Shown here: one piece after another, positions 2 through 11,293 of the stretch | Position numbering within the stretch: position 1 is the stretch's first letter | Layout: each line of letters opens with the position of its first letter | Assembly: GCA_030639495.1 (NCBI GenBank) | Contig: DAOWCP010000002.1 | Location: 10,156-74,155, forward strand | Reading direction: 5' to 3' | Source: Phycisphaerae bacterium | GTDB lineage: Bacteria > Planctomycetota > Phycisphaerae > Sedimentisphaerales > Anaerobacaceae | DNA: 64,000 bases | The notes under the pieces: generated by a model | Seen by the model: only the letters and a program-made list of their open reading frames with translations | Database searches by the model: none | What the model was told of the DNA's origin: nothing | Position numbers and translations under genes: made by a program

Positions 2-1672
2 ACGCAAGGTGTAATGGCAACGGCGAATCAGGTTATTAGTCCGGAGGTTGCGGAATTAGTTGCCCTTGAGTTTGGAACAGAGCTTATTGTTGAACGAAAA
101 GCAAGCATCGAAGATGAAATCCAGAAAGAGTTTGAGCAGAAAGAGAAAAATAATCTTGAAAAGCGAAGTGTCATTGTAACAATGTTAGGCCATGTCGACC
201 ATGGTAAGACTTCTTTGCTCGATAAGATAAGGTCAACCCACGTTGCTTCCGGTGAAGCTGGTGGCATCACGCAGCATATTGGTGCCTACCAGGTAAGCGT
301 TGGCGATAGCAAGATAACATTCCTCGATACCCCGGGGCACGAAGCATTTACCGCTATGCGTGCAAGGGGTGCTAATATGACTGACGTTGTTGTTTTGGTT
401 GTTGCTGCTGATGATGGTATTATGCCTCAGACAATAGAGGCCATACACCATGCCAAAGCCGCGGAAGTGCCGGTCATTATAGCTTTAAATAAATGCGACC
501 TGCCGGGATGTGATTTTAACAGAATATACGCTCAGTTCTCTGAGCACGACCTGGTACCTATTGAATGGGGCGGTAAAACTGAAGTGGTTAAGACCTCAGC
601 AATTACAGGTGAGGGCATAGATGAATTGCTTGAGCATCTCGACTATACTACCGAACTTCTTGAGCTAAAAGCAGACAATACTGTTCCTGCGAGCGGTTGG
701 GTTGTTGAGGCGGAAATGGATCCCAAACGAGGTCCGGTTGCTACTTTACTCATAAAAGAAGGTATGCTTGGCAAAGGTGACGTTGTACTTGCCGGTTCTG
801 CTTATGGCAGGATAAAAGCTATGAAAAACAGCTACGGCAGGAGTTTAAAAGGTGCAACAAGTTCAATGCCTGTAGAGGTGACCGGCCTAAATGCTGTGCC
901 GCAGGCGGGCGATAAATTTTACAGACTTGAGGATATAAACCGTGCTAAAAATGCTGCGGAAGAAAGTACATTCAGATTGCGAGAAGATGCGTTGGCTGAA
1001 CGAACCCAGGTAACACTTGAGAATCTGTTTAGTCAGATAGAAGCTGGTAATGTAAAAGAACTCAATATAATTATCCGTGCTGATGTTCAGGGTTCCGTTG
1101 ATGTTCTTATGAAATATCTCTCCGAGTTAAGCACAGAAGAAGTGAAGATTAAAATTCTCCACGCTTCAACAGGTGGAATTACAGAAGGTGACGTTGTGCT
1201 TGCCGAAGCGTCAAATGCGATTATTATTGGTTTTAATGTCATCGCTGATGACTATGTAGCAAAGCAGGCAGAATCTCATGGCGTTGATGTAAGACTTTAT
1301 ACCATCATATACCAAATAACCGAAGAGCTTCGCAAGTCTATGGAAGGTCTCCTTGAGCCTGAAGAACAGGAAAAAAGCGTTGGAAGAGCTGTTATCAGAA
1401 ACACTTTCAAGGTTTCCAGGCTCGGCACCATTGCCGGTTGCTATGTAAATGACGGGGTGGTTCGCAAAAATGCTAAAGTAAGGCTCATAAGAGATAGTGT
1501 TATCATCCGTGACAACCTTACAATAGAAACTCTCAAGCACTTCAAAGATGATGTACGCGAAGTCAAAACAGGGCTTGAATGTGGTATCAAGGTTGCCAAA
1601 TTCGATGATGTCAAAATTGATGATATTTTCGATCTGTACGAAATAGTAGAGATTGCGAGAACTCTTTCTTAA
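2..1672 (+). CDS. infB: translation initiation factor IF-2, C-terminal ~550 aa (the 5' part of the gene lies upstream of the window)
   Basis: GTPase motifs [13 protein letters not shown] and NKCD are present. The N-terminal stretch [17 protein letters not shown] aligns with the internal E. coli IF-2 region AMATINQVIDQETAQLVA. The reading frame stays open to position 2, so the gene is truncated by the window edge. Confidence 0.95.
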
Positions 1673-1728
1673 AATAAGGAAAAGGTGTTCTTTGGATTAT
1701 TCAGTTTCAAGATGAAGCTTTAAAAGAT

Positions 1729-2115
1729 ATGGAAACAAGAAGACAAAAAAAAGTATCACGTGTCATAAAAGAGGTTGCCAGTGATGCTATAACTAACCAT
1801 CTCAGCGACCCCCGAATAGAAGGTTTTGTCTCAATTACTAAAGTTGATGTTTCGCCGAATTTAAAAACGGTTGACGTTTATCTCAGTATTTTCGGTGCTG
1901 ATGAGAAATCGCAGAAAAAAACATTCGTCGCGATAAAACATGCTACGCCAAAAATACATTTTATGCTTGCAAAAAGACTTACCAGCAAGTTTTGTCCATC
2001 GCTGCATTTTAAAATGGATGAAAGTCTTAAAAAGACGATGGAGACGATGAAGATCATAAACGACGTTGCAAGTGAATATGAAATTGAAGAAGATGAAGAT
2101 GGTAATCAGGTTTGA
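1729..2115 (+). CDS. rbfA: ribosome-binding factor A
   Basis: 128 aa with the RbfA-like core RVxxxIKEVASDAI...PRIEGFVSITKVDVSPNLKTVDVYLSIFG. It sits directly after infB, the conserved gene order. Confidence 0.85.
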   Translation: METRRQKKVSRVIKEVASDAITNHLSDPRIEGFVSITKVDVSPNLKTVDVYLSIFGADEKSQKKTFVAIKHATPKIHFMLAKRLTSKFCPSLHFKMDESLKKTMETMKIINDVASEYEIEEDEDGNQV

Positions 2116-2170
2116 TCCTGAAAAACAACTTTGTAACTGATGGAGTTTATTTCGATAGACAGAGGTTATT

Positions 2171-3004
2171 ATGAAAAACAGCAAGAGCTATTCTGATAAG
2201 ATTAAAAAACTGTATAAATCGCTGAAGAAAAAATATCCGAAGATAGAGCCTATAACGCATGATACGGTTACGGAGTCTCTGGTTTATGGTGCAATATCTG
2301 AGTATCTTACAGATAAAGGTACACAGGATACATTTGCTAATATACTTGGCTATTTTACTAATTTTAATGAATTGAGGGTCTCAAGAACGGAGGAGATCGT
2401 AGAAGTAATAAATTATAAGGATGAAGAGCTTGCCCGTGAAGTTGCACATTCTATTATAAGGGTACTTGCCAGTGTTTTCGCCGGCTTTAACTGCATTGAC
2501 CTTGAGAGCCTGAAAAAACTTGGAAAGCGTCCCGCAAGACAGGCACTTGAAGAAATCGAAGGCATCACGGTTTTCATGATAGATTATTGTATGTTTACTG
2601 CTTTGAGTGGACATGCCATCCCGCTTAATACAGCAATGATAGATTATCTTATTGGTGAGGAATTCGTGTATCCTTCCTCAGAGCAGAAAGACATCGAAGG
2701 TTTTTTAACCAGGCTTATTTCTGCTAACCAGGGTTATGAGTTTTATTCACTTCTCAGGCAGGAAAGTGAAACTTATAAACCTAAAAAGAAAAAAACCACC
2801 GGGAAAGGCAAAGCTGCTTTAAAAAAAGAAGTTGCTCCAAAGAAAACCACTAAGGCAAAAGCAGCTAAAAAGGCTGCTAAGAAAAAAACCGTAACCAAAA
2901 AAACAACTAAGAAAGTAGCTAAGAAAAAAGCTGCTAAAAAGGCAGTTAAAAAAGCTAAAACAAAAGCTGTCAAAAAAAAGACTAAGAAGAAAACTAAGAA
3001 GTAA
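2171..3004 (+). CDS. hypothetical protein with a ~200-aa N-terminal domain and a ~75-aa histone-H1-like lysine/alanine-rich C-terminal tail; putative DNA-binding or nucleoid protein
   Basis: The C-terminus is almost pure K/A/T/V repeats (KKAAKKKTVTKKTTKKVAKKKAAKKAVKKAKTKAVKKK). This resembles the tails of chlamydial Hc1, Bordetella BpH1 and AlgP. I could not assign the N-terminal domain to a family. The antisense ORF 2773-3018 is an artefact of the low-complexity repeat. Confidence 0.6.
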   Translation: MKNSKSYSDKIKKLYKSLKKKYPKIEPITHDTVTESLVYGAISEYLTDKGTQDTFANILGYFTNFNELRVSRTEEIVEVINYKDEELAREVAHSIIRVLASVFAGFNCIDLESLKKLGKRPARQALEEIEGITVFMIDYCMFTALSGHAIPLNTAMIDYLIGEEFVYPSSEQKDIEGFLTRLISANQGYEFYSLLRQESETYKPKKKKTTGKGKAALKKEVAPKKTTKAKAAKKAAKKKTVTKKTTKKVAKKKAAKKAVKKAKTKAVKKKTKKKTKK

Positions 3005-3022
3005 GAAAGGATTGACAATTAA

Positions 3023-3898
3023 ATGTCAAATGAAGTATTGAGATTAGGTATCCCCGCGGGCAGTTTGTACAAATCGACTGTAGAGCTTTTTGCCAAAGCA
3101 GGGTTTCGTATCGTAGATAGCAAAAGAAACTATCTTCCGCAGATAGATGATGACCAGATCGAGCTTATCATGCTCCGTGCACAGGAGATGAGTAAGTATG
3201 TTGCTGACGGCGTTATCGACGCTGGTATCACCGGCCATGACTGGGTTATAGAAAACGATTCCGATGTGATAGAAATTTGCGAATTGGCCTATAGCAAAGC
3301 AACAAGCAAACCAACGAAATGGGTGCTGGCAGTTCCCAATGAATCTGATATCACCAAGCCCGAGCAATTGAAAGGCGGGATCGTTGCTACCGAACTTGTC
3401 AATGCAACTAAAAAGTATTTCGCTGATAAAAAAATCGATGTCAAAGTCGAATTCAGCTGGGGTGCTACTGAAGTAAAAGCCAGGCTTGTTGATGCTATCG
3501 TTGAACTGACAGAAACCGGTTCTTCTATAAGAGCAAACAACCTGAGGATAATCGATACCCTCATAGTTTCGACAACAAGATTTATCACTAATAAGCAGGC
3601 ATGGGAAGATGATTTTAAGCGTGAGAAAATTGAAAATATTTCTATTCTTCTCCAGGCTGCTATAGATGCCAGGAACAAAGTTGGTTTAAAGCTTAATATC
3701 GTAAAAGACAACCTGCCGAAGATACTTAAAATTTTACCGGCAGAAAAAAGTCCGACTATTTCAAGCCTTGCAGACGATAAGTATATCGCTATCGAAGTAA
3801 TTATCGACAGCGATATCGAAAGAAAACTTGTTCCTGCTTTGAAACGTGCTGGTGCTTCGGGGATAATTACTTATCCTCTTAACAAAGTCATTCACTGA
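3023..3898 (+). CDS. hisG: ATP phosphoribosyltransferase, long form with C-terminal regulatory domain
   Basis: 291 aa. The HisG architecture is present, with ...GIPAGSLYKSTVELF...DAGITGHDW...ELTETGSSIRANNL... and a C-terminal HisG_C regulatory domain. Confidence 0.9.
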   Translation: MSNEVLRLGIPAGSLYKSTVELFAKAGFRIVDSKRNYLPQIDDDQIELIMLRAQEMSKYVADGVIDAGITGHDWVIENDSDVIEICELAYSKATSKPTKWVLAVPNESDITKPEQLKGGIVATELVNATKKYFADKKIDVKVEFSWGATEVKARLVDAIVELTETGSSIRANNLRIIDTLIVSTTRFITNKQAWEDDFKREKIENISILLQAAIDARNKVGLKLNIVKDNLPKILKILPAEKSPTISSLADDKYIAIEVIIDSDIERKLVPALKRAGASGIITYPLNKVIH

Positions 3899-3968: not shown

Positions 3969-5807
3969 TTACTTTATATTTTGTGCGTCAAGATATTTGT
4001 ATTGGAAATTAAAACCTTCTGCTGTGCTGAGTCCCTGAAATACTGAAACGCCGAAGTACTTGCTAACAGTTTCGAATTCCGGCAACAATTCGGGTTTGAT
4101 GGGGCCTAAAATGCTGAATCCTGCACCCTGGAAATTATCATCAGAATCATTTCCTTGTTTGGCTATTTCCGCAAATTGCTTAATTGTCCACCATATTACC
4201 TCAGCAGCTGCACAGCTGTCTTCTATAATAGCGGCTCCAACAGAAGAAGGATTGATATTTGATTTGGCATCATTAAACCATTTCGTTGAATTCAGAGAAG
4301 CAGCTTCTTTGCTGTTTAAGTTTCTGACAGCGTTTTCGACCGATTCTTCCGAACCTATTATTAAATGTGTATCAAGGACTGTAAAGGCAAAGTTTGGCAT
4401 ATCTACCTCACCGCCCGGCTCCTCCGGATCGTCGCCGGGGCTGCGCGTAGCGAACATAGGCAGATTTTTCATTTTAAGAATATAAATAGTATGGCCTAAA
4501 AGCTCTTTTGTTGAGTCCGGCTCATTGACCGCCAGCAGTTTTCCATGAATTTCTTTCAGTGATTTTTCAAGATTAATGTGGTCCGTTGTTTCTATTGCAA
4601 CTGTCGCATTCGTTGGTGATTTTCCTTTTTTGAAAGGCTTGTTCATCTGCTGAGCGTAAATAACCTGTGAACCTAAATAATCTATTATCGAAGTTTTAAG
4701 TTGCAATGAAGGCTGATCCGGTTGTGATGGCGGGACCAAAGGAGTGTTGAGCATAGCGGCAAAACCTGGACTGAAAGATGCGATTATTTTATACAATTCA
4801 GAATATGCGTTGGGCAGATCGACATTGACTACTATCATCGAATACACCGAAGCCGGCAAAAATGCAGGAGCTTTAACGGGTGCCGATTTTAAGTCGAGCA
4901 TTTTGAAAATGCCCTTTTTCTCGCCTTGGATTTTAACGTTCATCTTCGCTGAAAACGAACAGCCTGGTTTTCTCGCTACGGAAGCCGCCGCTACTATATT
5001 TGACAGGTTATCAATTCCAAGATTATCAACGATCGTTTTAAACTGACCGGATGTATCATTGCCGGAGAGGACCTGAATAATCTTTTTTATATTAATAAAA
5101 AAGTCAACGTCGTGATTTGGGCCTACAGATTTTATTGCATTGTTATAGCTGTCATTATCGAAAAGAGTTTCACTTGTAGCACCTTTGATATGGGCGATCA
5201 TGAATTTCAGTACTTCGATATCTTCCGAACCTAAAAGCACATCGTCGATAAAACAGTAACTCAAATTTCCAGCGAAACCAAAGCTAAGTCTTTTGGAACC
5301 TTCAGATGAGATGGTTCTTATTTTGACTGAGCGGTATTCGTCAGTTTTGATGCGCCAGCCTTGCTCATCTGCTTTGGTTAGCGACTCATTGATAAGCTCT
5401 TTTATCTTTTCAAGGTTTTCTCCCCATTGCAGGATAAAAAGTGCGGTCGGTTCATTATTTTCAACAGCTGTGGCATCCATAACAAGTGCGAAACTCACTC
5501 TGCCCCTCGGCAACAATTCGGAATCTGCGATCGATTTAACAAAAATGTTATCTTCACCTTCGATGCCCTTTTTGAATTTGTTTTTTATCTCATCAAAAAA
5601 AGCCTTCATCGCCGGTTCTTTGTATATTTTGTATAAAGACGTTTTTTCAAATTGGCTTTGAAGCTCGCTGAAATTTTCAACTTCAAGAAGTGCAACCGTG
5701 TCAGCGGGGATAAGCTTTGCTGTTTTGGGTAAAGGCTTGGCAGTCAATGTTGATGATAAAGCGACAGTTACTATTGTGATGAAGACAAGTTTGTTTAGAT
5801 ATTTCAC
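3969..5807 (-). CDS. secreted hypothetical protein (612 aa) with an N-terminal signal peptide
   Basis: N-terminus MKYLNKLVFITIVTVALSSTLTA is a signal peptide. No catalytic motifs were recognised. It is convergent with hisG and shares the terminator. Confidence 0.5.
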   Translation of the reverse strand: MKYLNKLVFITIVTVALSSTLTAKPLPKTAKLIPADTVALLEVENFSELQSQFEKTSLYKIYKEPAMKAFFDEIKNKFKKGIEGEDNIFVKSIADSELLPRGRVSFALVMDATAVENNEPTALFILQWGENLEKIKELINESLTKADEQGWRIKTDEYRSVKIRTISSEGSKRLSFGFAGNLSYCFIDDVLLGSEDIEVLKFMIAHIKGATSETLFDNDSYNNAIKSVGPNHDVDFFINIKKIIQVLSGNDTSGQFKTIVDNLGIDNLSNIVAAASVARKPGCSFSAKMNVKIQGEKKGIFKMLDLKSAPVKAPAFLPASVYSMIVVNVDLPNAYSELYKIIASFSPGFAAMLNTPLVPPSQPDQPSLQLKTSIIDYLGSQVIYAQQMNKPFKKGKSPTNATVAIETTDHINLEKSLKEIHGKLLAVNEPDSTKELLGHTIYILKMKNLPMFATRSPGDDPEEPGGEVDMPNFAFTVLDTHLIIGSEESVENAVRNLNSKEAASLNSTKWFNDAKSNINPSSVGAAIIEDSCAAAEVIWWTIKQFAEIAKQGNDSDDNFQGAGFSILGPIKPELLPEFETVSKYFGVSVFQGLSTAEGFNFQYKYLDAQNIK

Positions 5808-5840
5808 TTTGCAGGCCTTTCGAGAAGCAAAAATTGGTTT

Positions 5841-6806
5841 TTATTTTTTCCGGAAATCGGGCTTTTGTTCATTTTTTCTGCTGTCAGGCTGAAGGTATTT
5901 GTAGCCTGTATTGGGTGCGTCTTTGTCGTATGCGAATGATTCTCTGTTTTCGATGAAGTGTTTTATATAGTTGACCGGGATGGCAAAACCGAGTCCTCCG
6001 AAGAAGATGTAGCCCATATTTGTCACACCTATGACTTCGCCGGCAAGGTTGAACAACGGGCCTCCGGAGTTGCCTGGGTTGATGTCGGCATTTGTCTGTA
6101 GATATACCAACCCTTCAAAAGATCTGTTCTTTGTGCTAATGACGCCGTCGGTTACAGTTCTTTCCAGCCCCAATGGTGTGCCGATAGCAAATACCTGCTG
6201 ACCTACATTGATATCTTCGAGATCGCCGAGGCAGACATATTTTATTTCTGCACCTTCGAGGTCTTCGACTTTCAATAGTGCCAGATCGACGAATGGGTTC
6301 AGTGCTTCGATCTTTACCTTTTTGAATTTTTTCTTTTCAAAGCCGTTCGGACCTTTCTGGAAAACTGTTACTTCGATCTTTGTTTCCTGCTCGATCACGT
6401 GGCAGTTGGTTATCAGGTAGCCTTGCTCATTGATGAAAAACCCAGAGCCGAGCCCGCCGGGGGTTGAAACTTTTACGACTGCTTCTGCTACTTTTTCAAC
6501 ACATTTTTCGATAGACATTTTTTTGAGGTCGGCAGTTCTGTAGAGTTGATGGTTTGAGACAGCCGAGGCTGACGGTTCGTTGATGTCAGCAGCCTGCCCG
6601 TTGGTATCATTTGTGTATTGGTATTGGGTGATGTCATCTTTTGAAATCGACAGAGCGGTGTAGCCGATGTCGAGGATGAGCAGGTTGTCTTTGTCCGCGA
6701 GGATGTCACCGGTCAGGGTTTGGCCTTGCTTTAGCGTTACTACATCAGCTAAAGCAGCGACGGCTATTATCAATACCACCAGGATACCTATCGTTAACGA
6801 TCTCAT
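5841..6806 (-). CDS. membrane-anchored trypsin-like serine protease (S1C, HtrA/DegP-like protease domain; no PDZ domain seen)
   Basis: N-terminal TM segment LTIGILVVLIIAVAALA. Catalytic-triad context is present: ...YLITNCHVIEQ... and ...NPGNSGGPLFNLAGEVIGV... (GNSGGPL serine motif). Confidence 0.8.
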   Translation of the reverse strand: MRSLTIGILVVLIIAVAALADVVTLKQGQTLTGDILADKDNLLILDIGYTALSISKDDITQYQYTNDTNGQAADINEPSASAVSNHQLYRTADLKKMSIEKCVEKVAEAVVKVSTPGGLGSGFFINEQGYLITNCHVIEQETKIEVTVFQKGPNGFEKKKFKKVKIEALNPFVDLALLKVEDLEGAEIKYVCLGDLEDINVGQQVFAIGTPLGLERTVTDGVISTKNRSFEGLVYLQTNADINPGNSGGPLFNLAGEVIGVTNMGYIFFGGLGFAIPVNYIKHFIENRESFAYDKDAPNTGYKYLQPDSRKNEQKPDFRKK

Positions 6807-6939
6807 AAATTACTCCAATATCGAATTATGTGCAGTTATTTTCTTTATTTAAAGATATCTTAATTACTAAACAAAGCGAAGGCAATTATAAAATGGTTGC
6901 CCTTGATTTTGCTCGTTATTGTTGTTTTTATTTTTAGAT

Positions 6940-6969
6940 ATACCCTTGAAGGCTAATAAATCCCCGCGA
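6940..6969. promoter_or_regulatory. conserved ~30-nt motif ATACCCTTGAAGGCTAA-N-AAAT-CCGCGA, copy 1, 134-163 bp upstream of the S1C protease gene
   Basis: A near-identical copy lies at 7930-7959, upstream of the neighbouring EF-hand lipoprotein gene. Both copies have the same orientation and sit at similar distances from the start codons. Confidence 0.5.
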
Positions 6970-7266
6970 TAAAAACCCTAAAACACGATTTTATAATTGT
7001 TTACCCGCGAATAAACGGGGAAACTCAATCGCGAGCAGTATACATCTCTATATACTGCTGAAATTGCATATTGGTTTCAGCTTATTTTGTGTTTACAGCA
7101 GCAAAAGTTGTGATATTTGGCTTATTGGCGGTTAAAAATTGTTTTCCCCCCGGTTTTTGTCACGATTTTCTTTTTTTGGTAGGAATAACGGGGTGGGTAA
7201 ATCGGTGCATTATAACCTCTCGCCAAGTGTCCGTTATCCGTTTTAGCACCTGAGGTGCCGTCCTTT

Positions 7267-7782
7267 TTATTCCCTGGCCCAGTTGCCCCATACTCTGAGA
7301 TACTCAGGTAAAGTTAACATTCCGTCTGCATTCATATCGAATTCATCGAAAACATCTTTCGCCTTAAATTCATCTTTTGTCAGTTTGCCGTCATTATTTT
7401 TGTCCATCTGTTCATAGATCGATTTGGCTTCATCGGTAATTATTCTGTTGTTAACATACTCAGCTTCGGTTGCTATACCGTCTTTGTTACGGTCTGTCGC
7501 AGCGAAAATCTTTCTCCTGACCATTTCATTCATGTGCCTTGAGTTTTTTACATATTGCTCCTCGGTCAGTTGACCATCTCCATCGGCGTCCATCCTGCCG
7601 AAGATATTTTTATATTGCTGAATATCCTGCTCGGATGCCGCTTCTGTCCCTTTTGCTCCCATCATGGCAAGTATCTGACGATGGTTTTTTGGCGCAACTG
7701 AATTATCTTTACCACATCCTGAAATTATAAAAATCAGCATAGATGTGAATATGGCTATATACAAAGTCAATGGCCTGAACAT
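7267..7782 (-). CDS. EF-hand calcium-binding lipoprotein
   Basis: Lipobox ...IFIISGCGKDN. Four canonical EF-hand loops are present: DADGDGQLTEEQ, DRNKDGIATEAE, DKNNDGKLTKDE and DMNADGMLTLPE. Confidence 0.8.
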   Translation of the reverse strand: MFRPLTLYIAIFTSMLIFIISGCGKDNSVAPKNHRQILAMMGAKGTEAASEQDIQQYKNIFGRMDADGDGQLTEEQYVKNSRHMNEMVRRKIFAATDRNKDGIATEAEYVNNRIITDEAKSIYEQMDKNNDGKLTKDEFKAKDVFDEFDMNADGMLTLPEYLRVWGNWARE

Positions 7783-7929
7783 GTGCGATCTCCTGTCTGC
7801 AAAAATGTCTCGTTAATTATTATATCTTGTCCAACTCAAACTTGCCCAACTCAAAAGCAGAATCCGATTACATCAAAGAATCTCTATGGAACCACAAATT
7901 TAGCATAAGTTTTTACAAAATCAAATATT

Positions 7930-7959
7930 ATACCCTTGAAGGCTAAGAAAATTCCGCGA
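7930..7959. promoter_or_regulatory. conserved ~30-nt motif, copy 2, 148-177 bp upstream of the EF-hand lipoprotein gene
   Basis: TATACCCTTGAAGGCTAAGAAAATTCCGCGA against copy 1 TATACCCTTGAAGGCTAATAAATCCCCGCGA. Confidence 0.5.
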
Positions 7960-7999
7960 ATGGGCCAGATTTGCTGAAATCGATTTTCAAAAATTTACC

Positions 8000-8410
8000 T
8001 TTTTTCACCTTTTTTCTGCTTTTTTTCCTTTTTTTGCGAAAAATAACAGGAAATAACGGTTTTTGAGCAAAAATAACAGTGGGTAAAATGGTGTTTTGTG
8101 GATTTTTGGGTTAAAAACGAGGATTATTTTTGGGATTTGGCGAAATTCGGGGTGAATTTTTGTGCTCGGCAGGGATTAAAGTGGGTTTTTGGGCGAATCG
8201 GCAGGATTTTCCCAATTTTTCCCGGATTTTACGGTTTTTTTTGGTTTTTTACGGTTTTTTCAGAGAAATGACAAGAAATGATGAAAAATCACAAGAAATA
8301 ACGAAAAATATCAGGAAATGATGAAAAATCACAAGAAATGACAGGAAATGACAAGAAATGACGAGAAATGATGAAAAATATCAGGAAATGACGAAAAATA
8401 ACAAGAAATG
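8000..8410. repeat. non-coding region of about 410 bp with strict 10-bp periodicity: phased T-tracts, AAATAACAG repeats, and 15 tandem decamers with consensus ACAAGAAATG
   Basis: Decamers read in phase across 8000-8040 (ttttttcacc, ttttttctgc, tttttttcct, ttttttgcga). 8041-8080 carries three AAATAACAG units. 8191-8260 has T-tract decamers (gcaggatttt, cccaattttt, cccggatttt, acggtttttt, ttggtttttt, acggtttttt). 8261-8410 has 15 A-rich decamers (cagagaaatg, acaagaaatg, atgaaaaatc and so on). No codon-like structure. Confidence 0.85.
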
Positions 8411-8792
8411 TAAATTTGGTTGTCGGGAAATGGTGCTGTAATCGGCATAATCGTTACAGGCGGAATTTTTGGATGCAGATAAGCCTTGTAGACAGGCTGA
8501 GGGGGCTGGGTTTTTCGCATATGCGAAATTTACGGCCAGGAAGGAAAGTGTGTTGGCCGTGGATTGCGTGGATTTCCGTTTCGGGCTTCTCGCTTCGCTT
8601 CGTGTCGCGGATTAAAAGGGAAGACCCTGCGAATGAATCGCAGGGCTAACTATGGGAGTGTGGGTGTAGGCAAGCACAAGACCTGCCATTACAAAGAGGT
8701 GGTATTACGCCCGGGATTGAAAGGCGTGAAGAAAAGATGGAAATTATGAATTGGGGGAATATGACTCCCGCAGAGGGGCAAAGGAAAGATGA

Positions 8793-8891
8793 AAAAAGGT
8801 GAAGGTGATTCAGGGTGACTTGAATTATGACGGCATGGTCGATCTGGTAGATTTTGCGATTTTTGCCGGACAGTGGTTGGAAGGGATATAA
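8793..8891 (+). pseudogene. remnant of a C-terminal dockerin-like or calcium-binding module (KKVKVIQGDLNYDGMVDLVDFAIFAGQWLEGI*) with no upstream coding body
   Basis: A D-x-N-x-D-G-x-V-D repeat is followed by a hydrophobic/aromatic tail and a stop. In-frame stops lie immediately upstream. It sits inside a GC-richer stretch of the intergenic region. Confidence 0.3.
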
Positions 8892-9278
8892 TTGCTCCAG
8901 GACTGATTATTGGTGCGGTGATGTTAGGAAAAAGACGATAAAATAACAAATGTCAGTTGGCTTATCTTCACTTTCCTTTTCCAACGACCACTTGACTGGC
9001 AGTCTCCAGAACCCATAACGCTTTTGCTGCTCGGCTTAGGGGATGGACTTCTCTCTCCCCATAAATGACAGGTACGTAATGGATGGGGATTTTCTGGTCC
9101 AAATATGAAGAGTCTGAGCATTGATTTTGATATTGATTTTTCTGAAAATTGCAGTAAACTTCAATACAAGTCAAACTTGTGTGATTTTTATAACTCTTTG
9201 CAAATAAACAAGGTGTGAATTTTTGAGAAAACAATTACTGTTAAGGTCAACAAAATTAAATGTGACTGAGATTCTGGT

Positions 9279-10484
9279 ATGAAGTATGCGAGCAAGATAA
9301 TCCTTTTAGTTATTGCTCTTGTCGTTCTTACGGTAATGATTCTGGTGAGAATCTCACTGCATAAACCAAGGCATGAAATTAATAAAGAGGTAGTCGTTGA
9401 TATTCAGCGAAAAGGGTTAATGGGTAAGGAGAATGGTTGGCCTATGTTTCATGGCGGGCCTGAATTGCGGGGGTATACACAAAATGTTTTGCCTGATTCG
9501 TTGACGGTTCTTTGGAAATTTAAGACAGATGATGAAATCAAGTCATCGCCTGTGATTGATGAAGGCCTGGTTTTTATTGGTTCGGCTGACGCGAATGTCT
9601 ATGCGATTGACCTGGAAAATGGTAATCAGGTATGGAGTTATAAAACCGGTGGTGCTGTCGAGGCAACAGCTTGTGTGGTAGATGGTTCTGTTTTCATAGG
9701 CTCGGCAGACAGTTTTCTGTATGCTCTTGATATGAAAACCGGACAGCTTAAGTGGAAGTACGAAACCGGAGGAAAAATATTAGGCTCGGCAAACTGGATA
9801 CACAGCGATAATGAGCAGGATATACAGATAGTTGTTGGAAGCTACGATAGTCAATTGTATTGTTTGAATTCAAAAGATGGTAAGGTTATATGGAGTTACA
9901 GAACAGACAGCTATATTAATGGAACAGCTGCCATCTCTGACGGGAAAATAGTTTTCGGCGGATGTGACGGGATGATACATGTGGTTTCGGTAAAGGACGG
10001 CGCAGGCATCAGTCTTATAGACGCGGGCGCATATATTGCCGGAGCAGCAGCGGTTTCGGGGGGTAATGCTTATGTGGGCAACTATGAAAATGCTTTTATA
10101 AAAACCGATATCGAATCGGGGAAGATTTTGTGGAAATATACGGGCTCCGATGAGCCTTATTTTTCTTCACCGGCAGTCACAAACGGGCGGGTGGTGTTTG
10201 GCGGAAGAGATAATCGAATTCACTGTTTAGAAGCAGATAGCGGCAAAGAAGTGTGGACATTCCAGACGCTGGGAGAGGTGGATAGTTCACCTGTGATCTG
10301 TGGCGGGAGGGTTGTTGTCGGTTGTGAGGATGGAAGGCTATATATGGTTAGACTATCAGACGGCAGTAAAATCTGGTCATTTGAAATTGGTCAGGCGATT
10401 ACTTCTTCACCGGCAGTTGCCGACGGTGTGGTTGTTGTGGGCTGTGATGATGGGTATGTATACGCGTTTGGGCCTGGGCAATAG
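9279..10484 (+). CDS. membrane-anchored PQQ-like beta-propeller repeat protein (BamB/YfgL-like fold)
   Basis: N-terminal TM anchor. Entry motif WPMFHGGPELRG. Repeated blades of the type G-x-VF/YIGSADxxLYALDxxTGxxxWxY. Confidence 0.8.
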   Translation: MKYASKIILLVIALVVLTVMILVRISLHKPRHEINKEVVVDIQRKGLMGKENGWPMFHGGPELRGYTQNVLPDSLTVLWKFKTDDEIKSSPVIDEGLVFIGSADANVYAIDLENGNQVWSYKTGGAVEATACVVDGSVFIGSADSFLYALDMKTGQLKWKYETGGKILGSANWIHSDNEQDIQIVVGSYDSQLYCLNSKDGKVIWSYRTDSYINGTAAISDGKIVFGGCDGMIHVVSVKDGAGISLIDAGAYIAGAAAVSGGNAYVGNYENAFIKTDIESGKILWKYTGSDEPYFSSPAVTNGRVVFGGRDNRIHCLEADSGKEVWTFQTLGEVDSSPVICGGRVVVGCEDGRLYMVRLSDGSKIWSFEIGQAITSSPAVADGVVVVGCDDGYVYAFGPGQ

Positions 10485-10498
10485 ATGGGAGTGGTTTT

Positions 10499-11293
10499 AT
10501 GAGAATAGCTCTAATAGTAGCCGGTGTGGGAGATACCTCGACATGCGTAAACTGTTTGCGTGACGCAGCTTTGATTCGAGAATTTCGCAAACTGGGTCAT
10601 GAAGTATTGGTTGTCCCTTTGTATTTGCCGTTTCGACCCCAGGGTCAGAAACCAGCTGGCCAGGTACCGATTTTTTTTGGCGGGATAAATGTGTATCTGC
10701 AACAAAAATCAATTTTTTTTCGTAAAACCCCTCGCTGGTTTGACCGGATTTTTGATAATCGAAAGCTCCTGGAATGGGCAAGCGGGAAATTTCAGATGGT
10801 CGATGCACAGTTTTTAGGCCAAACAACAGTGTCAATGTTAAAAGGCAGGGATGGTTATCAGGTTAAAGAGCTTGGCCGTCTTAGTCGATGGCTTAATAAA
10901 AAGGAGAACATGCCCGATGTTATATGCCTGTCGAATGCGTTGCTCGCGGGGTTGGCAGAAGCTCTTAAGCTGACGGTCGCTATGCCGGTAGTATGTTTGC
11001 TTCAGGGTGAAGATAAGTTTCTGGACGAACTTGCGCCGCCATATAACCAGCAGGGATGGAGTATCCTTTCCGACTGTGTTTGTGAAATCGATGGTTTTAT
11101 TGCAGTTGGCGAACATTATGCTGATGTTATGAAAAGGAGGCTGGAAATCGGACGGGATAAAATGCACGTTGTTTATGCTGATAATTCAGATGCAAAAGAA
11201 GGTGTGAGATATAATATTGACAAGCTATCAGAGAAAATAGCATTTGTATTTACAAAAATATTGAAAAACTTTACTGAGGGCGATCATGCTTGA
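10499..11293 (+). CDS. hypothetical protein resembling the N-terminal half of a GT4-type glycosyltransferase; the C-terminal catalytic half is not evident
   Basis: Begins MRIALIVAGVGD...LGHEVLVV. Only 264 aa. The 3' end overlaps the ABC ATPase gene by 8 nt. Confidence 0.35.
   Translation: MRIALIVAGVGDTSTCVNCLRDAALIREFRKLGHEVLVVPLYLPFRPQGQKPAGQVPIFFGGINVYLQQKSIFFRKTPRWFDRIFDNRKLLEWASGKFQMVDAQFLGQTTVSMLKGRDGYQVKELGRLSRWLNKKENMPDVICLSNALLAGLAEALKLTVAMPVVCLLQGEDKFLDELAPPYNQQGWSILSDCVCEIDGFIAVGEHYADVMKRRLEIGRDKMHVVYADNSDAKEGVRYNIDKLSEKIAFVFTKILKNFTEGDHA

What the first reader, a model, noticed from the sequence alone, without database searches (positions are those of the whole stretch)
8000..8410. 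About 410 bp of strictly 10-bp-phased T-tracts and A-tracts (predicted strongly curved DNA) in a 1.5-kb non-coding region upstream of the mega-operon
When read in 10-nt register the sequence resolves into decamers: T6-7 tracts (8000-8040, 8191-8260), AAATAACAG units, then 15 tandem ACAAGAAATG-like decamers (8261-8410). The helical phasing of A/T tracts, with the tract strand switching at ~8260, predicts pronounced intrinsic curvature. This is not coding, not CRISPR (no spacers), and not a classic REP element. Candidate roles are a nucleoid-protein or histone-like-protein binding platform, a UP-element or architectural region for the divergent promoters, a DNA-unwinding element, or a partition or centromere-like site.
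Basis: seen in the sequence. Interest (0 to 1): 0.7.

Follow-up and report, generated by a model that had tools for sequence, protein, structure and literature searches.

The report
Conserved curved-DNA module with decamer array
A roughly 560-bp non-coding stretch in an uncultured planctomycete is built from about 40 helically phased T/A tracts, including 15 tandem decamers, is predicted to be strongly curved, and recurs upstream of different exported-protein genes in relatives, so it is most likely a DNA-shape regulatory module rather than chance or junk.

Summary
Window 7991-8410 reads as decamers, and it has the strongest ~10-bp AA/TT periodicity and the strongest predicted curvature in the 64-kb window (0 of 1000 shuffles reach the periodicity). 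"Strictly phased" holds for 7991-8078 and 8207-8410. The register shifts three times in 8081-8200.

The feature is part of a larger modular element, 7977-8538:
- a palindrome;
- a 270-bp T/A-tract module;
- 15 RRRAAAT-type decamers;
- a conserved right module.

The element is not tied to the downstream "mega-operon", because relatives of that operon lack it. The tract module is ancestral upstream of the HtrA-like protease gene in relatives at 78-87% protein identity. In five relatives (77-87%) that position is the most curved spot of the locus. In this genome an extended copy sits upstream of the minus-strand EF-hand lipoprotein gene. Three further copies (84-90% identical, arrays of 15-17 units) lie in three different gene contexts in one metagenome.

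Across 62 units AAAT is invariant and three positions are purine-only. Indels come in 10-11-bp steps.

Best reading: a cis-acting, intrinsically curved architectural or regulatory upstream module, possibly also a phased protein-binding platform. The origin, centromere, CRISPR, structured RNA and contingency-locus readings are not supported. It is a new variant of a known kind.

The parts
7977..8538 (.). Whole conserved modular element, defined as the extent of homology with copies in other gene contexts.
   Evidence: blastn against L158: 90% identity over 7977-8262 and 86% over 8406-8538. Against L214: 86% over 7976-8250 and 81% over 8405-8511. Against L124: 84% over 7967-8250.
7977..7999 (+). 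Gene-proximal end motif AAATCGATTTTCAAAAATTTACC. It contains the 10-bp palindrome AAATCGATTT (7977-7986).
   Evidence: Exact in L158 and L124, and 2 mismatches in L214. L124 carries a second copy with 2 mismatches.
7991..8260 (+). T/A-tract module: about 25 T4-8 or A3-5(T) tracts spaced about 10 bp apart, in four register blocks.
   Evidence: Homologous to the region upstream of the HtrA-like gene in L010, L012 and L013 by alignment and blastn (70-74% identity) and in L335 by reading its sequence. Tract positions are more conserved than linkers. Predicted end-to-end/contour ratio is 0.34 against 0.87 for shuffles.
8261..8410 (+). Array of 15 contiguous decamers with consensus A-C/T-R-R-R-A-A-A-T-N (ACAAGAAATG). 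It includes an internal 70-bp (7-unit) higher-order repeat.
   Evidence: AAAT is invariant and positions 3-5 are purine-only in 62/62 units of four copies. Primary arrays have 15, 17, 15 and 15 units.
8411..8538 (+). Conserved right module. It holds the hairpin CTGTAATCGGCATAATCGTTACAG (8436-8459) followed by TTTTT (8466-8470), and the perfect 16-bp palindrome TTTCGCATATGCGAAA (8513-8528).
   Evidence: The hairpin is kept in L158 (1 mismatch) and L214 (2 mismatches). The palindrome is exact in L158 and absent in L214.
7267..7782 (-). EF-hand calcium-binding lipoprotein gene, the gene on the T-tract side and the presumed target. Its start codon lies 195 bp from the element.
   Evidence: Pfam EF-hand. 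Promoter-like TGGGCA-18-TATAAT at 7848-7819 on the minus strand. An 87% relative of this gene (L335) has only 91 bp of upstream sequence and no element.
7113..7260 (.). Shorter, degenerate copy of the tract module upstream of the HtrA-like gene, at the orthologous (ancestral) position.
   Evidence: Repeats D6 (7166-7192 with 8024-8050) and D13 (7193-7207 with 8079-8093). Read by eye against the L012, L013 and L335 sequences.
5841..6806 (-). HtrA/DegP-like serine protease gene without a PDZ domain. In relatives the tract module lies directly upstream of this gene.
   Evidence: Pfam Trypsin_2; NCBIfam degP_htrA_DO, sub-threshold; relatives.
7929..7959 (+). Promoter-proximal 31-nt motif between the element and the EF-hand gene, duplicated at 6939-6969.
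   Evidence: 2 exact 18-mers against 0.06 expected. A variant is present in L124 and L015.

Best explanation
The finding is the core of a ~560-bp modular cis-element (7977-8538). Its main property is DNA shape: about 40 A/T tracts repeated once per helical turn make an intrinsically curved, left-handed superhelical segment.

The element acts in cis on the promoter region of the gene on its T-tract side. In this genome that is the minus-strand EF-hand lipoprotein gene. Ancestrally it was the HtrA-like protease gene.

The ~270-bp tract module is the old, conserved part. In the window's sub-lineage it gained 15-17 phased RRRAAAT decamers and a right-hand module, and it was copied to several loci.

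Inferred mechanism:
- The curved segment sets promoter architecture. It may fix the promoter at a loop apex or wrap upstream DNA back onto RNA polymerase.
- It may also nucleate a helically phased protein coat, either a nucleoid-associated protein or a regulator that binds direct repeats at 10-bp spacing.
- Either way, transcription of the adjacent exported-protein gene would become sensitive to supercoiling, temperature or protein occupancy.

Shown: the anatomy, periodicity, model curvature, conservation, polarity and multiple contexts. Inferred: that it regulates transcription, and how.
For: 1. Periodicity and curvature are extreme and not due to chance.
2. The tract module is recognisably homologous upstream of the HtrA-like gene in relatives at 78-87% neighbour-protein identity: L010, L012 and L013 by alignment and blastn, L335 by reading its sequence.
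3. In five relatives (L009, L010, L012, L013, L335) the most curved 150-bp window of the whole 8-16-kb locus lies upstream of that gene. In L009, which gave no blastn match to the module at E 1e-6, that position is also the locus maximum of AA/TT periodicity.
4. Tract positions are more conserved than linkers: 79% against 50% invariant, p = 1.4e-5.
5. Indels between copies are 10 or 11 bp.
6. All copies keep model curvature of 14-18 degrees per turn.
7. Polarity is constant. The T-tract end faces the 5' end of a gene in the window (EF-hand), in L158 (PEP-CTERM protein), and in L010, L012, L013 and L335 (HtrA-like). Genes on the far side vary and even converge on the element.
8. In the decamers AAAT is invariant in 62/62 units, positions 3-5 are always purines, and array length is 15-17 in four copies that differ by 10-16% elsewhere.
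9. The array is identical in three independent assemblies that span it (the window, L001 and L002), so it is stable.
10. Helically phased A-tracts upstream of bacterial promoters are an established phenomenon (PMC9825172 and references in it).
Against: - No promoter or transcription start is mapped. The distance to the start codon varies between copies: 195 bp (window) and 375 bp (L158) to the element end, and about 220 bp to the tract module in L013 and L335. That is far for a classical UP element.
- G-interrupted RRRAAAT units are poorer benders than pure A5-6 tracts. Their strict sequence constraint is therefore not explained by curvature alone.
- The wedge angles were recalled from memory, and only one model was used.
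- Homopolymer runs align easily, which inflates apparent tract conservation.
- The three extra copies were found with a pattern that required at least 4 array units, so copies without arrays would have been missed.
- 10-bp RAAAT arrays are common in unrelated metagenomic and giant-virus contigs, so such arrays can arise without this function.
- In distant relatives the upstream periodicity is weak.
Confidence: 0.5

Rival explanations
1. Sequence-specific protein platform. The 15-17 decamers are iteron-like direct repeats, each bound by one subunit of a repeat-binding protein: a ribbon-helix-helix ParR/omega-like protein, or an OmpR/PhoB-type winged-helix regulator that binds head-to-tail at 10-11-bp spacing. 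The result would be a filament or superhelix. On this view curvature is secondary, and the array is the functional core (a silencer, activator array or titration site).
For: - Seven of ten unit positions are constrained (AAAT invariant, RRR purine-only) in 62 units, which is more than bending needs.
- The spacing is exactly 10.0 bp and array length is kept at 15-17 units.
- ParR proteins are known to bind contiguous 10-bp repeats cooperatively (PMC5016525).
- The palindromes at both ends of the element (7977-7986, 8513-8528) look like operator sites.
Against: - No candidate binding-protein gene travels with the element. The flanks differ in every context.
- There are no par genes and no plasmid or phage context.
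- The older tract module exists without any decamer array in L012, L013 and L335.
- Resemblance to OmpR, PhoB or omega sites rests on memory only and fails at their conserved positions.
Confidence: 0.2
2. Functionless dispersed satellite. A slippage-prone decamer array and an A/T-rich spacer were spread by recombination or hitch-hiking and persist neutrally. Curvature is a by-product of a 10-bp unit that contains AAAT.
For: - The array has higher-order 70-bp and 20-bp repeats typical of unequal exchange.
- Unit order differs between copies.
- Similar 10-bp RAAAT arrays abound in unrelated contigs.
- Contigs of relatives often break at the element, as expected for a repeat.
Against: - Constraint is position-specific: 248 AAAT sites are unchanged, while other unit positions vary by 16-50%.
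- Length is stable at 15-17 units, and the sequence is identical in the independent assemblies that span it.
- Tracts are better conserved than linkers, and indels preserve phase.
- Curvature persists at the same gene-relative position in L009, where blastn found no match to the module.
- Polarity towards a gene start is constant.
Confidence: 0.13
3. Non-coding RNA. The plus strand from about 7990 to 8470 is transcribed into a repeat-rich RNA (U-tracts followed by RRRAAAU repeats) that ends at the hairpin plus U-run (8436-8470). It would sponge an RNA-binding protein, in the manner of CsrB/RsmZ or CrcZ.
For: - A conserved hairpin followed by T5-6 lies directly after the array in three copies.
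- The repeats are purine-rich and strand-asymmetric.
- An extended -10-like TGCTGTAAT lies at 8434-8442 (read).
Against: - No Rfam family matches above noise.
- Folding energy is no better than shuffles on either strand (z = -0.98 and +0.86).
- Only 10 of 62 units contain GGA.
- The hairpin is A/T-rich, lies 6 nt from the T-run, and was not called by the terminator scan.
- No upstream promoter was found.
- The older module lacks this part.
Confidence: 0.07
4. Replication origin, DNA-unwinding element or chromosomal centromere-like site.
For: - Genes diverge from the region (3969-7782 on the minus strand, 9279-41736 on the plus strand).
- The DNA is A/T-rich and repetitive.
Against: - There is no DnaA box with up to 1 mismatch in 7783-9278, and the window as a whole is not enriched (13 found against 17.5 expected).
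- There is no GC-skew sign change here, because skew follows gene strand.
- Homologous copies lie in at least three other contexts in one metagenome.
- The ancestral module sits in an ordinary promoter region.
Confidence: 0.03

Closest known systems
Intrinsically curved, helically phased A-tract DNA upstream of bacterial promoters (e.g. curved upstream regions reviewed by Perez-Martin and de Lorenzo; phased A-tracts at Synechocystis promoters, PMC9825172)
   Same: A/T tracts of 4-8 bp recur once per helical turn upstream of a gene start. Curvature is predicted, and the position is conserved while the sequence drifts.
   Different: - Scale: about 40 tracts over 420 bp, against the 3-6 tracts usual in this class (from memory).
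- It lies 200-650 bp from the start codon.
- It is conserved as a recognisable sequence module and copied to several loci.
- Half of it is a tandem decamer array with sequence constraints beyond A/T content.
Kinetoplast minicircle bent helix (Crithidia/Leishmania; from memory)
   Same: A long run of A-tracts phased at 10 bp gives extreme curvature over a few hundred bp.
   Different: The organism and replicon are unrelated, that example has no promoter context, and there is no sequence relationship.
parC-type centromeres and other arrays bound by ribbon-helix-helix proteins (ParR of pSK41 and R1; PMC5016525)
   Same: Contiguous 10-11-bp direct repeats lie upstream of a gene, which is geometry that supports a protein superhelix.
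   Different: The context is chromosomal and multi-copy, no parM/parR genes are adjacent, the array is longer (15-17 units against 8-10), and the tract module has no counterpart.
Curved A/T-rich DNA as a nucleation site for nucleoid-associated silencers and as a thermosensor (H-NS at virF, phased A-tracts at Clostridium perfringens plc; from memory)
   Same: Curved upstream DNA lies in front of stress or exported-protein genes. The ancestral target here is an HtrA-like protease gene.
   Different: No H-NS-like protein has been identified in this lineage, and nothing here tests temperature dependence.

Membership tests
Phased A-tract curved upstream DNA | A/T tracts of at least 4 bp without TpA steps, repeated at 10-11 bp over several turns | tested here: met
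   About 40 tracts are listed with their registers. Periodicity power is the window maximum, and 0 of 1000 shuffles reach it.
Phased A-tract curved upstream DNA | Curvature by a structural model | tested here: met
   Wedge model: the top 25 150-bp windows of the 64-kb window all lie in this region. Bending is 15-17 degrees per turn, beyond all 100 shuffles. Only one model was used, with angles recalled from memory.
Phased A-tract curved upstream DNA | Anomalous electrophoretic mobility or directly measured curvature | not testable with these tools
   Requires a gel-shift, AFM or cyclisation experiment on the fragment.
Phased A-tract curved upstream DNA | Located upstream of a promoter and affecting its activity | tested here: inconclusive
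   The element is always upstream of a gene start on the T-tract side. The promoter is only predicted, and no expression data are available.
parC/ParR-type centromere | Contiguous 10-11-bp direct repeats | tested here: met
   15 contiguous decamers.
parC/ParR-type centromere | Adjacent parM/parR (or parA/parB) operon on a plasmid or phage | tested here: not met
   The flanks are EF-hand, HtrA-like and PQQ-propeller genes on a chromosome with infB, rbfA and hisG. There is no plasmid or phage similarity.
Chromosomal origin / DUE | Cluster of DnaA boxes | tested here: not met
   None with up to 1 mismatch in 7783-9278.
Chromosomal origin / DUE | GC-skew sign switch and single-copy conserved context | tested here: not met
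   Skew follows gene strand. The element occurs in at least 4 different contexts.
CRISPR array | Repeats of 20-50 bp separated by unique spacers | tested here: not met
   The 10-bp units are contiguous, with no spacers.
MITE/REP-type mobile repeat | Terminal inverted repeats and target-site duplication; insertion independent of gene polarity | tested here: not met
   Only a weak 24-nt inverted pair was found (75% complementarity; I3), and it is not kept in L158. The homology boundaries show no duplication. Polarity towards a gene start is constant.
CsrB/RsmZ-type sponge RNA | Many GGA motifs in hairpin loops, its own promoter and a strong terminator | tested here: not met
   GGA occurs in 10 of 62 units. 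There is no Rfam hit and no fold signal.
Contingency locus (phase-variable repeat tract) | Copy-number polymorphism within a population | tested here: not met
   The 15 units are identical in the window and in the two other assemblies that span the array. Diverged copies have 15-17 units.

The most novel reading that the evidence does not exclude
The tract module plus decamer array could be a positioning sequence for a defined nucleoprotein particle. On this reading about 420-560 bp of DNA is pre-bent into a left-handed superhelix (10.0-bp phasing) and is coated or wrapped by a still unknown abundant DNA-binding protein of this Phycisphaerae lineage. The unit would be reused upstream of several exported-protein genes as a switchable, chromatin-like regulatory module, in effect a bacterial analogue of a positioned nucleosome or enhanceosome.
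Probability: 0.1. Interest if true: 0.8.

Novelty: new variant of a known kind. Interest (0 to 1): 0.45.

Why it matters
Phased A-tracts near bacterial promoters have been known for decades, but their role remains debated. This is a natural extreme case: about 40 phased tracts, conserved as a module, kept at one gene-relative position while the sequence drifts, and re-used at other genes. Its sequence constraints go beyond bending. It offers clear, separable test objects (tract module, decamer array, end palindromes) for asking whether DNA shape alone or a phased protein coat controls a promoter. It also suggests that uncultured Planctomycetota use DNA architecture in regulation more heavily than model bacteria do. 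The practical limit is that the organism is known only from metagenomes.

Tried and rejected
- **Synteny through the downstream operon.** I used homologues of the PQQ-propeller gene. The operon is conserved, but its upstream regions are short and unrelated, so the link to the operon was dropped.
- **Rfam.** An E-value scan of 6700-9400 returned only noise (miRNA models matching the T-run/A-run).
- **RNA folding.** Folding 8190-8470 on both strands gave energies no better than shuffles.
- **Origin test.** GC skew and DnaA boxes were both negative.
- **Coding potential.** ORFs in and beyond the periodic region (8130-9234) have no Pfam hit except a sub-threshold dockerin remnant.
- **Plasmid and phage BLAST** of 7960-8560 found no match.
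- **Viral-contig scan** with a loose decamer pattern gave at least 120 hits in giant-virus and phage contigs. None shared more than short array-like similarity with the window, so it showed only that such arrays are common.
- **Transposon ends.** Inspecting homology boundaries between copies revealed none.
- **Deep conservation of periodicity.** In 56 Phycisphaerae loci the upstream maximum is in the top 1% of the locus in about 26 of 56, but it is weak and the sequences are unrelated, so this is only mild support.
- **Literature.** A search for 10-bp tandem repeats at bacterial promoters found nothing.
- **The Lys-rich protein 2171-3004 as a binder.** It has no Pfam or PDB hit and only a low-complexity NCBIfam match, so there is no evidence either way.
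- **Resemblances recalled from memory** (PhoB box CTGTCAT on the minus strand, OmpR half-sites, omega heptad AATCACA, H-NS motif TCGATAAATT). These were considered only as leads. The positions that vary in the units are the ones those proteins need, so no membership is claimed.

Full report
**Observation**

- T6-7 tracts at 8000-8036;
- three (A)AAATAAC units at 8039-8078;
- a less regular stretch at 8081-8200;
- T4-8 tracts at 8186-8260;
- 15 contiguous decamers at 8261-8410, with the tract strand switching at 8260/8261.

Tandem Repeats Finder reports the array with periods 10, 20, 30, 50 and 70. The period-70 row has 87% matches and a score of 224, which indicates a duplicated 7-unit block (also family D1). 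A 17-mer spanning two units matches 8 times with up to 3 mismatches, all inside the array, against 0.44 expected.

The AA/TT power spectrum puts this region far above the rest of the 64-kb window. None of 1000 dinucleotide-preserving shuffles reaches the observed power for any sub-segment.

"Strictly" 10-bp phased is true for 7991-8078 and 8207-8410. Between them the register shifts three times.

The region does not encode protein. ORFs have no Pfam hit, and only a dockerin-like C-terminal remnant is seen at 8797-8892.

**Curvature**

I used a dinucleotide wedge model, with Bolshoy-Trifonov angles recalled from memory. It is one model, not a measurement.
- All 25 most curved 150-bp windows of the 64-kb window start between 7901 and 8261.
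- The tract module bends by about 17 degrees per turn (sum about 425 degrees). The array bends by about 15 degrees per turn (about 180 degrees).
- Both values exceed all 100 shuffles.
- With exact 10.0-bp phasing the array follows a left-handed superhelical path in the model.

**Organism and context**

The window is a chromosome segment of an uncultured planctomycete. NCBI names the identical protein "MAG: Planctomycetes bacterium, KAS96_09090", and the relatives are Phycisphaerae/Sedimentisphaerales MAGs.

The genes run as follows:

| Coordinates | Strand | Gene |
|---|---|---|
| 14-3898 | + | infB, rbfA, a Lys-tailed 277-aa protein, hisG |
| 3969-5807 | - | DUF3352 protein |
| 5841-6806 | - | HtrA/DegP-like protease without a PDZ domain |
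| 7267-7782 | - | EF-hand lipoprotein |
| 7783-9278 | | 1.5-kb gap |
| from 9279 | + | long operon (PQQ-propeller, GT4, ABC, FtsX and others) |

**Not linked to the operon**

Homologues of the first operon gene at 60-70% identity sit in the same operon. Their upstream regions are 130-420 bp long, are unrelated to this one, and are preceded by different genes.

**Linked to the gene on the T-tract side**

Relatives found through the DUF3352 gene (77-92% identity) carry phased A-tracts upstream of the HtrA-like gene. In those loci the best periods are 10.0 bp (L009) and 10.4-10.5 bp (L010, L012, L013).

Alignment shows that window 7966-8176 is homologous to that region in L010, L012 and L013, at 70-74% identity by blastn. 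By reading its sequence, L335 carries the same module.

In L335 the EF-hand gene (87% identical) has only 91 bp of upstream sequence and no element. The module sits upstream of the HtrA-like gene. The ancestral site is therefore the HtrA-like gene.

In the window genome a shortened remnant remains at that position (7113-7260; repeats D6 and D13). A full, extended copy lies upstream of the EF-hand gene.

In five relatives (L009, L010, L012, L013, L335) the most curved 150-bp window of the entire 8-16-kb locus lies upstream of the HtrA-like gene. This includes L009, where blastn found no match to the module.

In 56 more distant Phycisphaerae loci the upstream periodicity is in the top 1% of the locus in about 26 cases, but it is weak.

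**A dispersed family**

Most hits are unrelated AT-rich, eukaryote-like or giant-virus-like contigs with their own 10-bp arrays. The motif class is therefore common.

Three contigs are true homologues of the whole element: L158, L214 and L124. All three come from one metagenome, Ga0307990.
- Identity is 84-90% over the tract module and 81-86% over the right module.
- The flanks of L158 and L214 have the tetranucleotide signature of this lineage (r about 0.9). None of the three contigs encodes any of the window's flanking proteins.
- In L158 the element lies between the 3' end of a 1094-aa GLUG protein gene and the 5' end of a PEP-CTERM protein gene.
- In L214 it lies next to a tRNA-like sequence (recognised by eye, not checked with the tRNA tool) and a PurQ-like amidotransferase gene.
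- L124 shares the window's promoter-proximal motif at 94% identity, plus a 370-bp insertion.

In every case where the near side is visible, the T-tract end faces the start of a gene.

Contigs of relatives frequently end at the element. This is consistent with the element being a repeat within those genomes.

**Signs of constraint**

- Across 62 units from four copies, positions 6-9 are AAAT without exception. Positions 3-5 are always purines. Positions 1, 2 and 10 vary.
- Primary arrays have 15, 17, 15 and 15 units, although unit order differs and flanking modules differ by 10-16%.
- The array is identical in the window and in the two other independent assemblies that span it.
- In the tract module, tract positions are more often invariant than linker positions: 79% against 50% for the window compared with L013 and L012, p = 1.4e-5. 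The caveat is that homopolymers align easily.
- Indels between copies are 10 or 11 bp.
- Conserved non-tract landmarks are the end palindrome AAATCGATTT (7977-7986), a hairpin plus T-run (8436-8470) and the 16-bp palindrome TTTCGCATATGCGAAA (8513-8528).

**Interpretation**

The best-supported reading is a cis-acting architectural module whose selected property is helically phased curvature. It sits upstream of the promoter of the gene on its T-tract side.

This fits the established class of curved, phased A-tract DNA upstream of bacterial promoters (PMC9825172). It differs from that class in scale, in being a conserved and re-used module, and in carrying a decamer array whose RRRAAAT constraint exceeds what bending requires.

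That excess keeps open a phased, sequence-specific protein platform, with geometry like the ParR-parC system (PMC5016525). No partner gene travels with the element, however.

The other readings are not supported:
- A neutral satellite is disfavoured by the position-specific invariance, stable length, phase-preserving indels and constant polarity.
- A structured or sponge RNA is disfavoured by the Rfam and folding results and by the rarity of GGA.
- An origin or centromere is disfavoured by the absence of DnaA boxes and of a skew switch, by the chromosomal multi-copy context, and by the lack of plasmid or phage matches.

**Shown and inferred**

Shown:
- anatomy, periodicity beyond chance and model curvature;
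- homology and conservation of position;
- several gene contexts with constant polarity;
- sequence constraints within the units.

Inferred:
- that the element regulates the adjacent gene;
- the mechanism (loop apex or wrapping of RNA polymerase, nucleation of a phased protein coat, possible temperature or supercoiling sensitivity suggested by the HtrA-like target);
- that the three Ga0307990 copies come from one genome.

**Verdict**

This is a real, non-random and probably functional DNA-shape element. It is a new variant of a known kind and of moderate interest.

Noticed in passing
window 6939-6969 and 7929-7959: The 31-nt motif TATACCCTTGAAGGCTAAnAAAnnCCGCGA occurs twice. The 18-mer is exact in both copies, against 0.06 expected. 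Each copy lies about 135-175 bp upstream of a minus-strand gene start (HtrA-like, EF-hand). On the minus strand it reads as a near-palindrome ACCCTT.AAGGGT abutting TATAAT or TATATC. Variants are seen in L015 and L124. It looks like a duplicated promoter or operator segment.
   Followed up: partly
window 7826-7855: A 15-bp direct repeat (CTTGYCCAACTCAAA, two copies) lies immediately upstream of the -10-like TATAAT of the predicted EF-hand promoter (7848-7819, minus strand). It may be a regulator binding site.
   Followed up: no
window 8797-8892 (+): A short open frame ends ...GDLNYDGMVDLVDFAIFAGQWLEGI* and gives a sub-threshold Dockerin_1 hit (E = 0.02). It is probably the C-terminal remnant of a decayed gene inside the 1.5-kb gap.
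   Followed up: partly
window 2171-3004 (+): A 277-aa protein has an unknown ~195-aa N-terminal domain and a KKAAKK-type, histone-H1-like tail. A homologue-sized gene (265-285 aa, no Pfam) sits between rbfA and hisG in all close relatives. It has no Pfam or PDB match and only a low-complexity NCBIfam hit.
   Followed up: partly
window 10499-11293 (+): The glycosyltransferase gene of the operon encodes 264 aa (GT4 N-domain only), against 433-438 aa (GT4 plus GT1) in L005 and L007. It is absent in L006. This suggests a truncated or decaying gene inside an otherwise conserved operon.
   Followed up: no
L122 480-960, L178 1800-2260, L102 40-410, L151 700-1000, L208 1900-2450 (approximate): Long arrays of 10-bp units, (GGAAATCACA)n with 30-40 units and (GACAAGAAAT)n with about 45 units, occur in unrelated marine metagenome contigs. 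Their tetranucleotide correlation to the window is 0.4-0.67. At least 120 metagenome contigs and at least 120 viral contigs matched four-unit RAAAT patterns, so this array class is widespread.
   Followed up: partly
L158 4570-4600, L214 2465-2560, L124 100-135: A 33-nt insert, ACCATCCTTTGCGTGAAGCTGCGGAGGGCGAG, interrupts or terminates the decamer arrays in all three Ga0307990 copies (twice in L214). It is absent from the window copy.
   Followed up: no
L010 1, L012 1, L015 1, L214 3029, L124 (1047-bp contig); EF-hand homologues: Assemblies of relatives often break at or next to the element, and many EF-hand gene contigs are 1.1 kb or shorter. This is the pattern expected if the element and the duplicated promoter segment are repeats within those genomes.
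   Followed up: partly
window 9881-10112 vs L001 1-232: The otherwise identical contig L001 differs at 41 of 232 positions at its end, inside the first operon gene. The window's exact PQQ-propeller protein is not on record. This may reflect strain-level recombination or an assembly chimera at the contig end.
   Followed up: no
window 7057-7081: The hairpin GCTGAAATTGCATATTGGTTTCAGC upstream of the HtrA-like gene is conserved in L010, L012, L013 and L335. It is called terminator-like on the plus strand, which is antisense to the gene. Its role is unknown.
   Followed up: no
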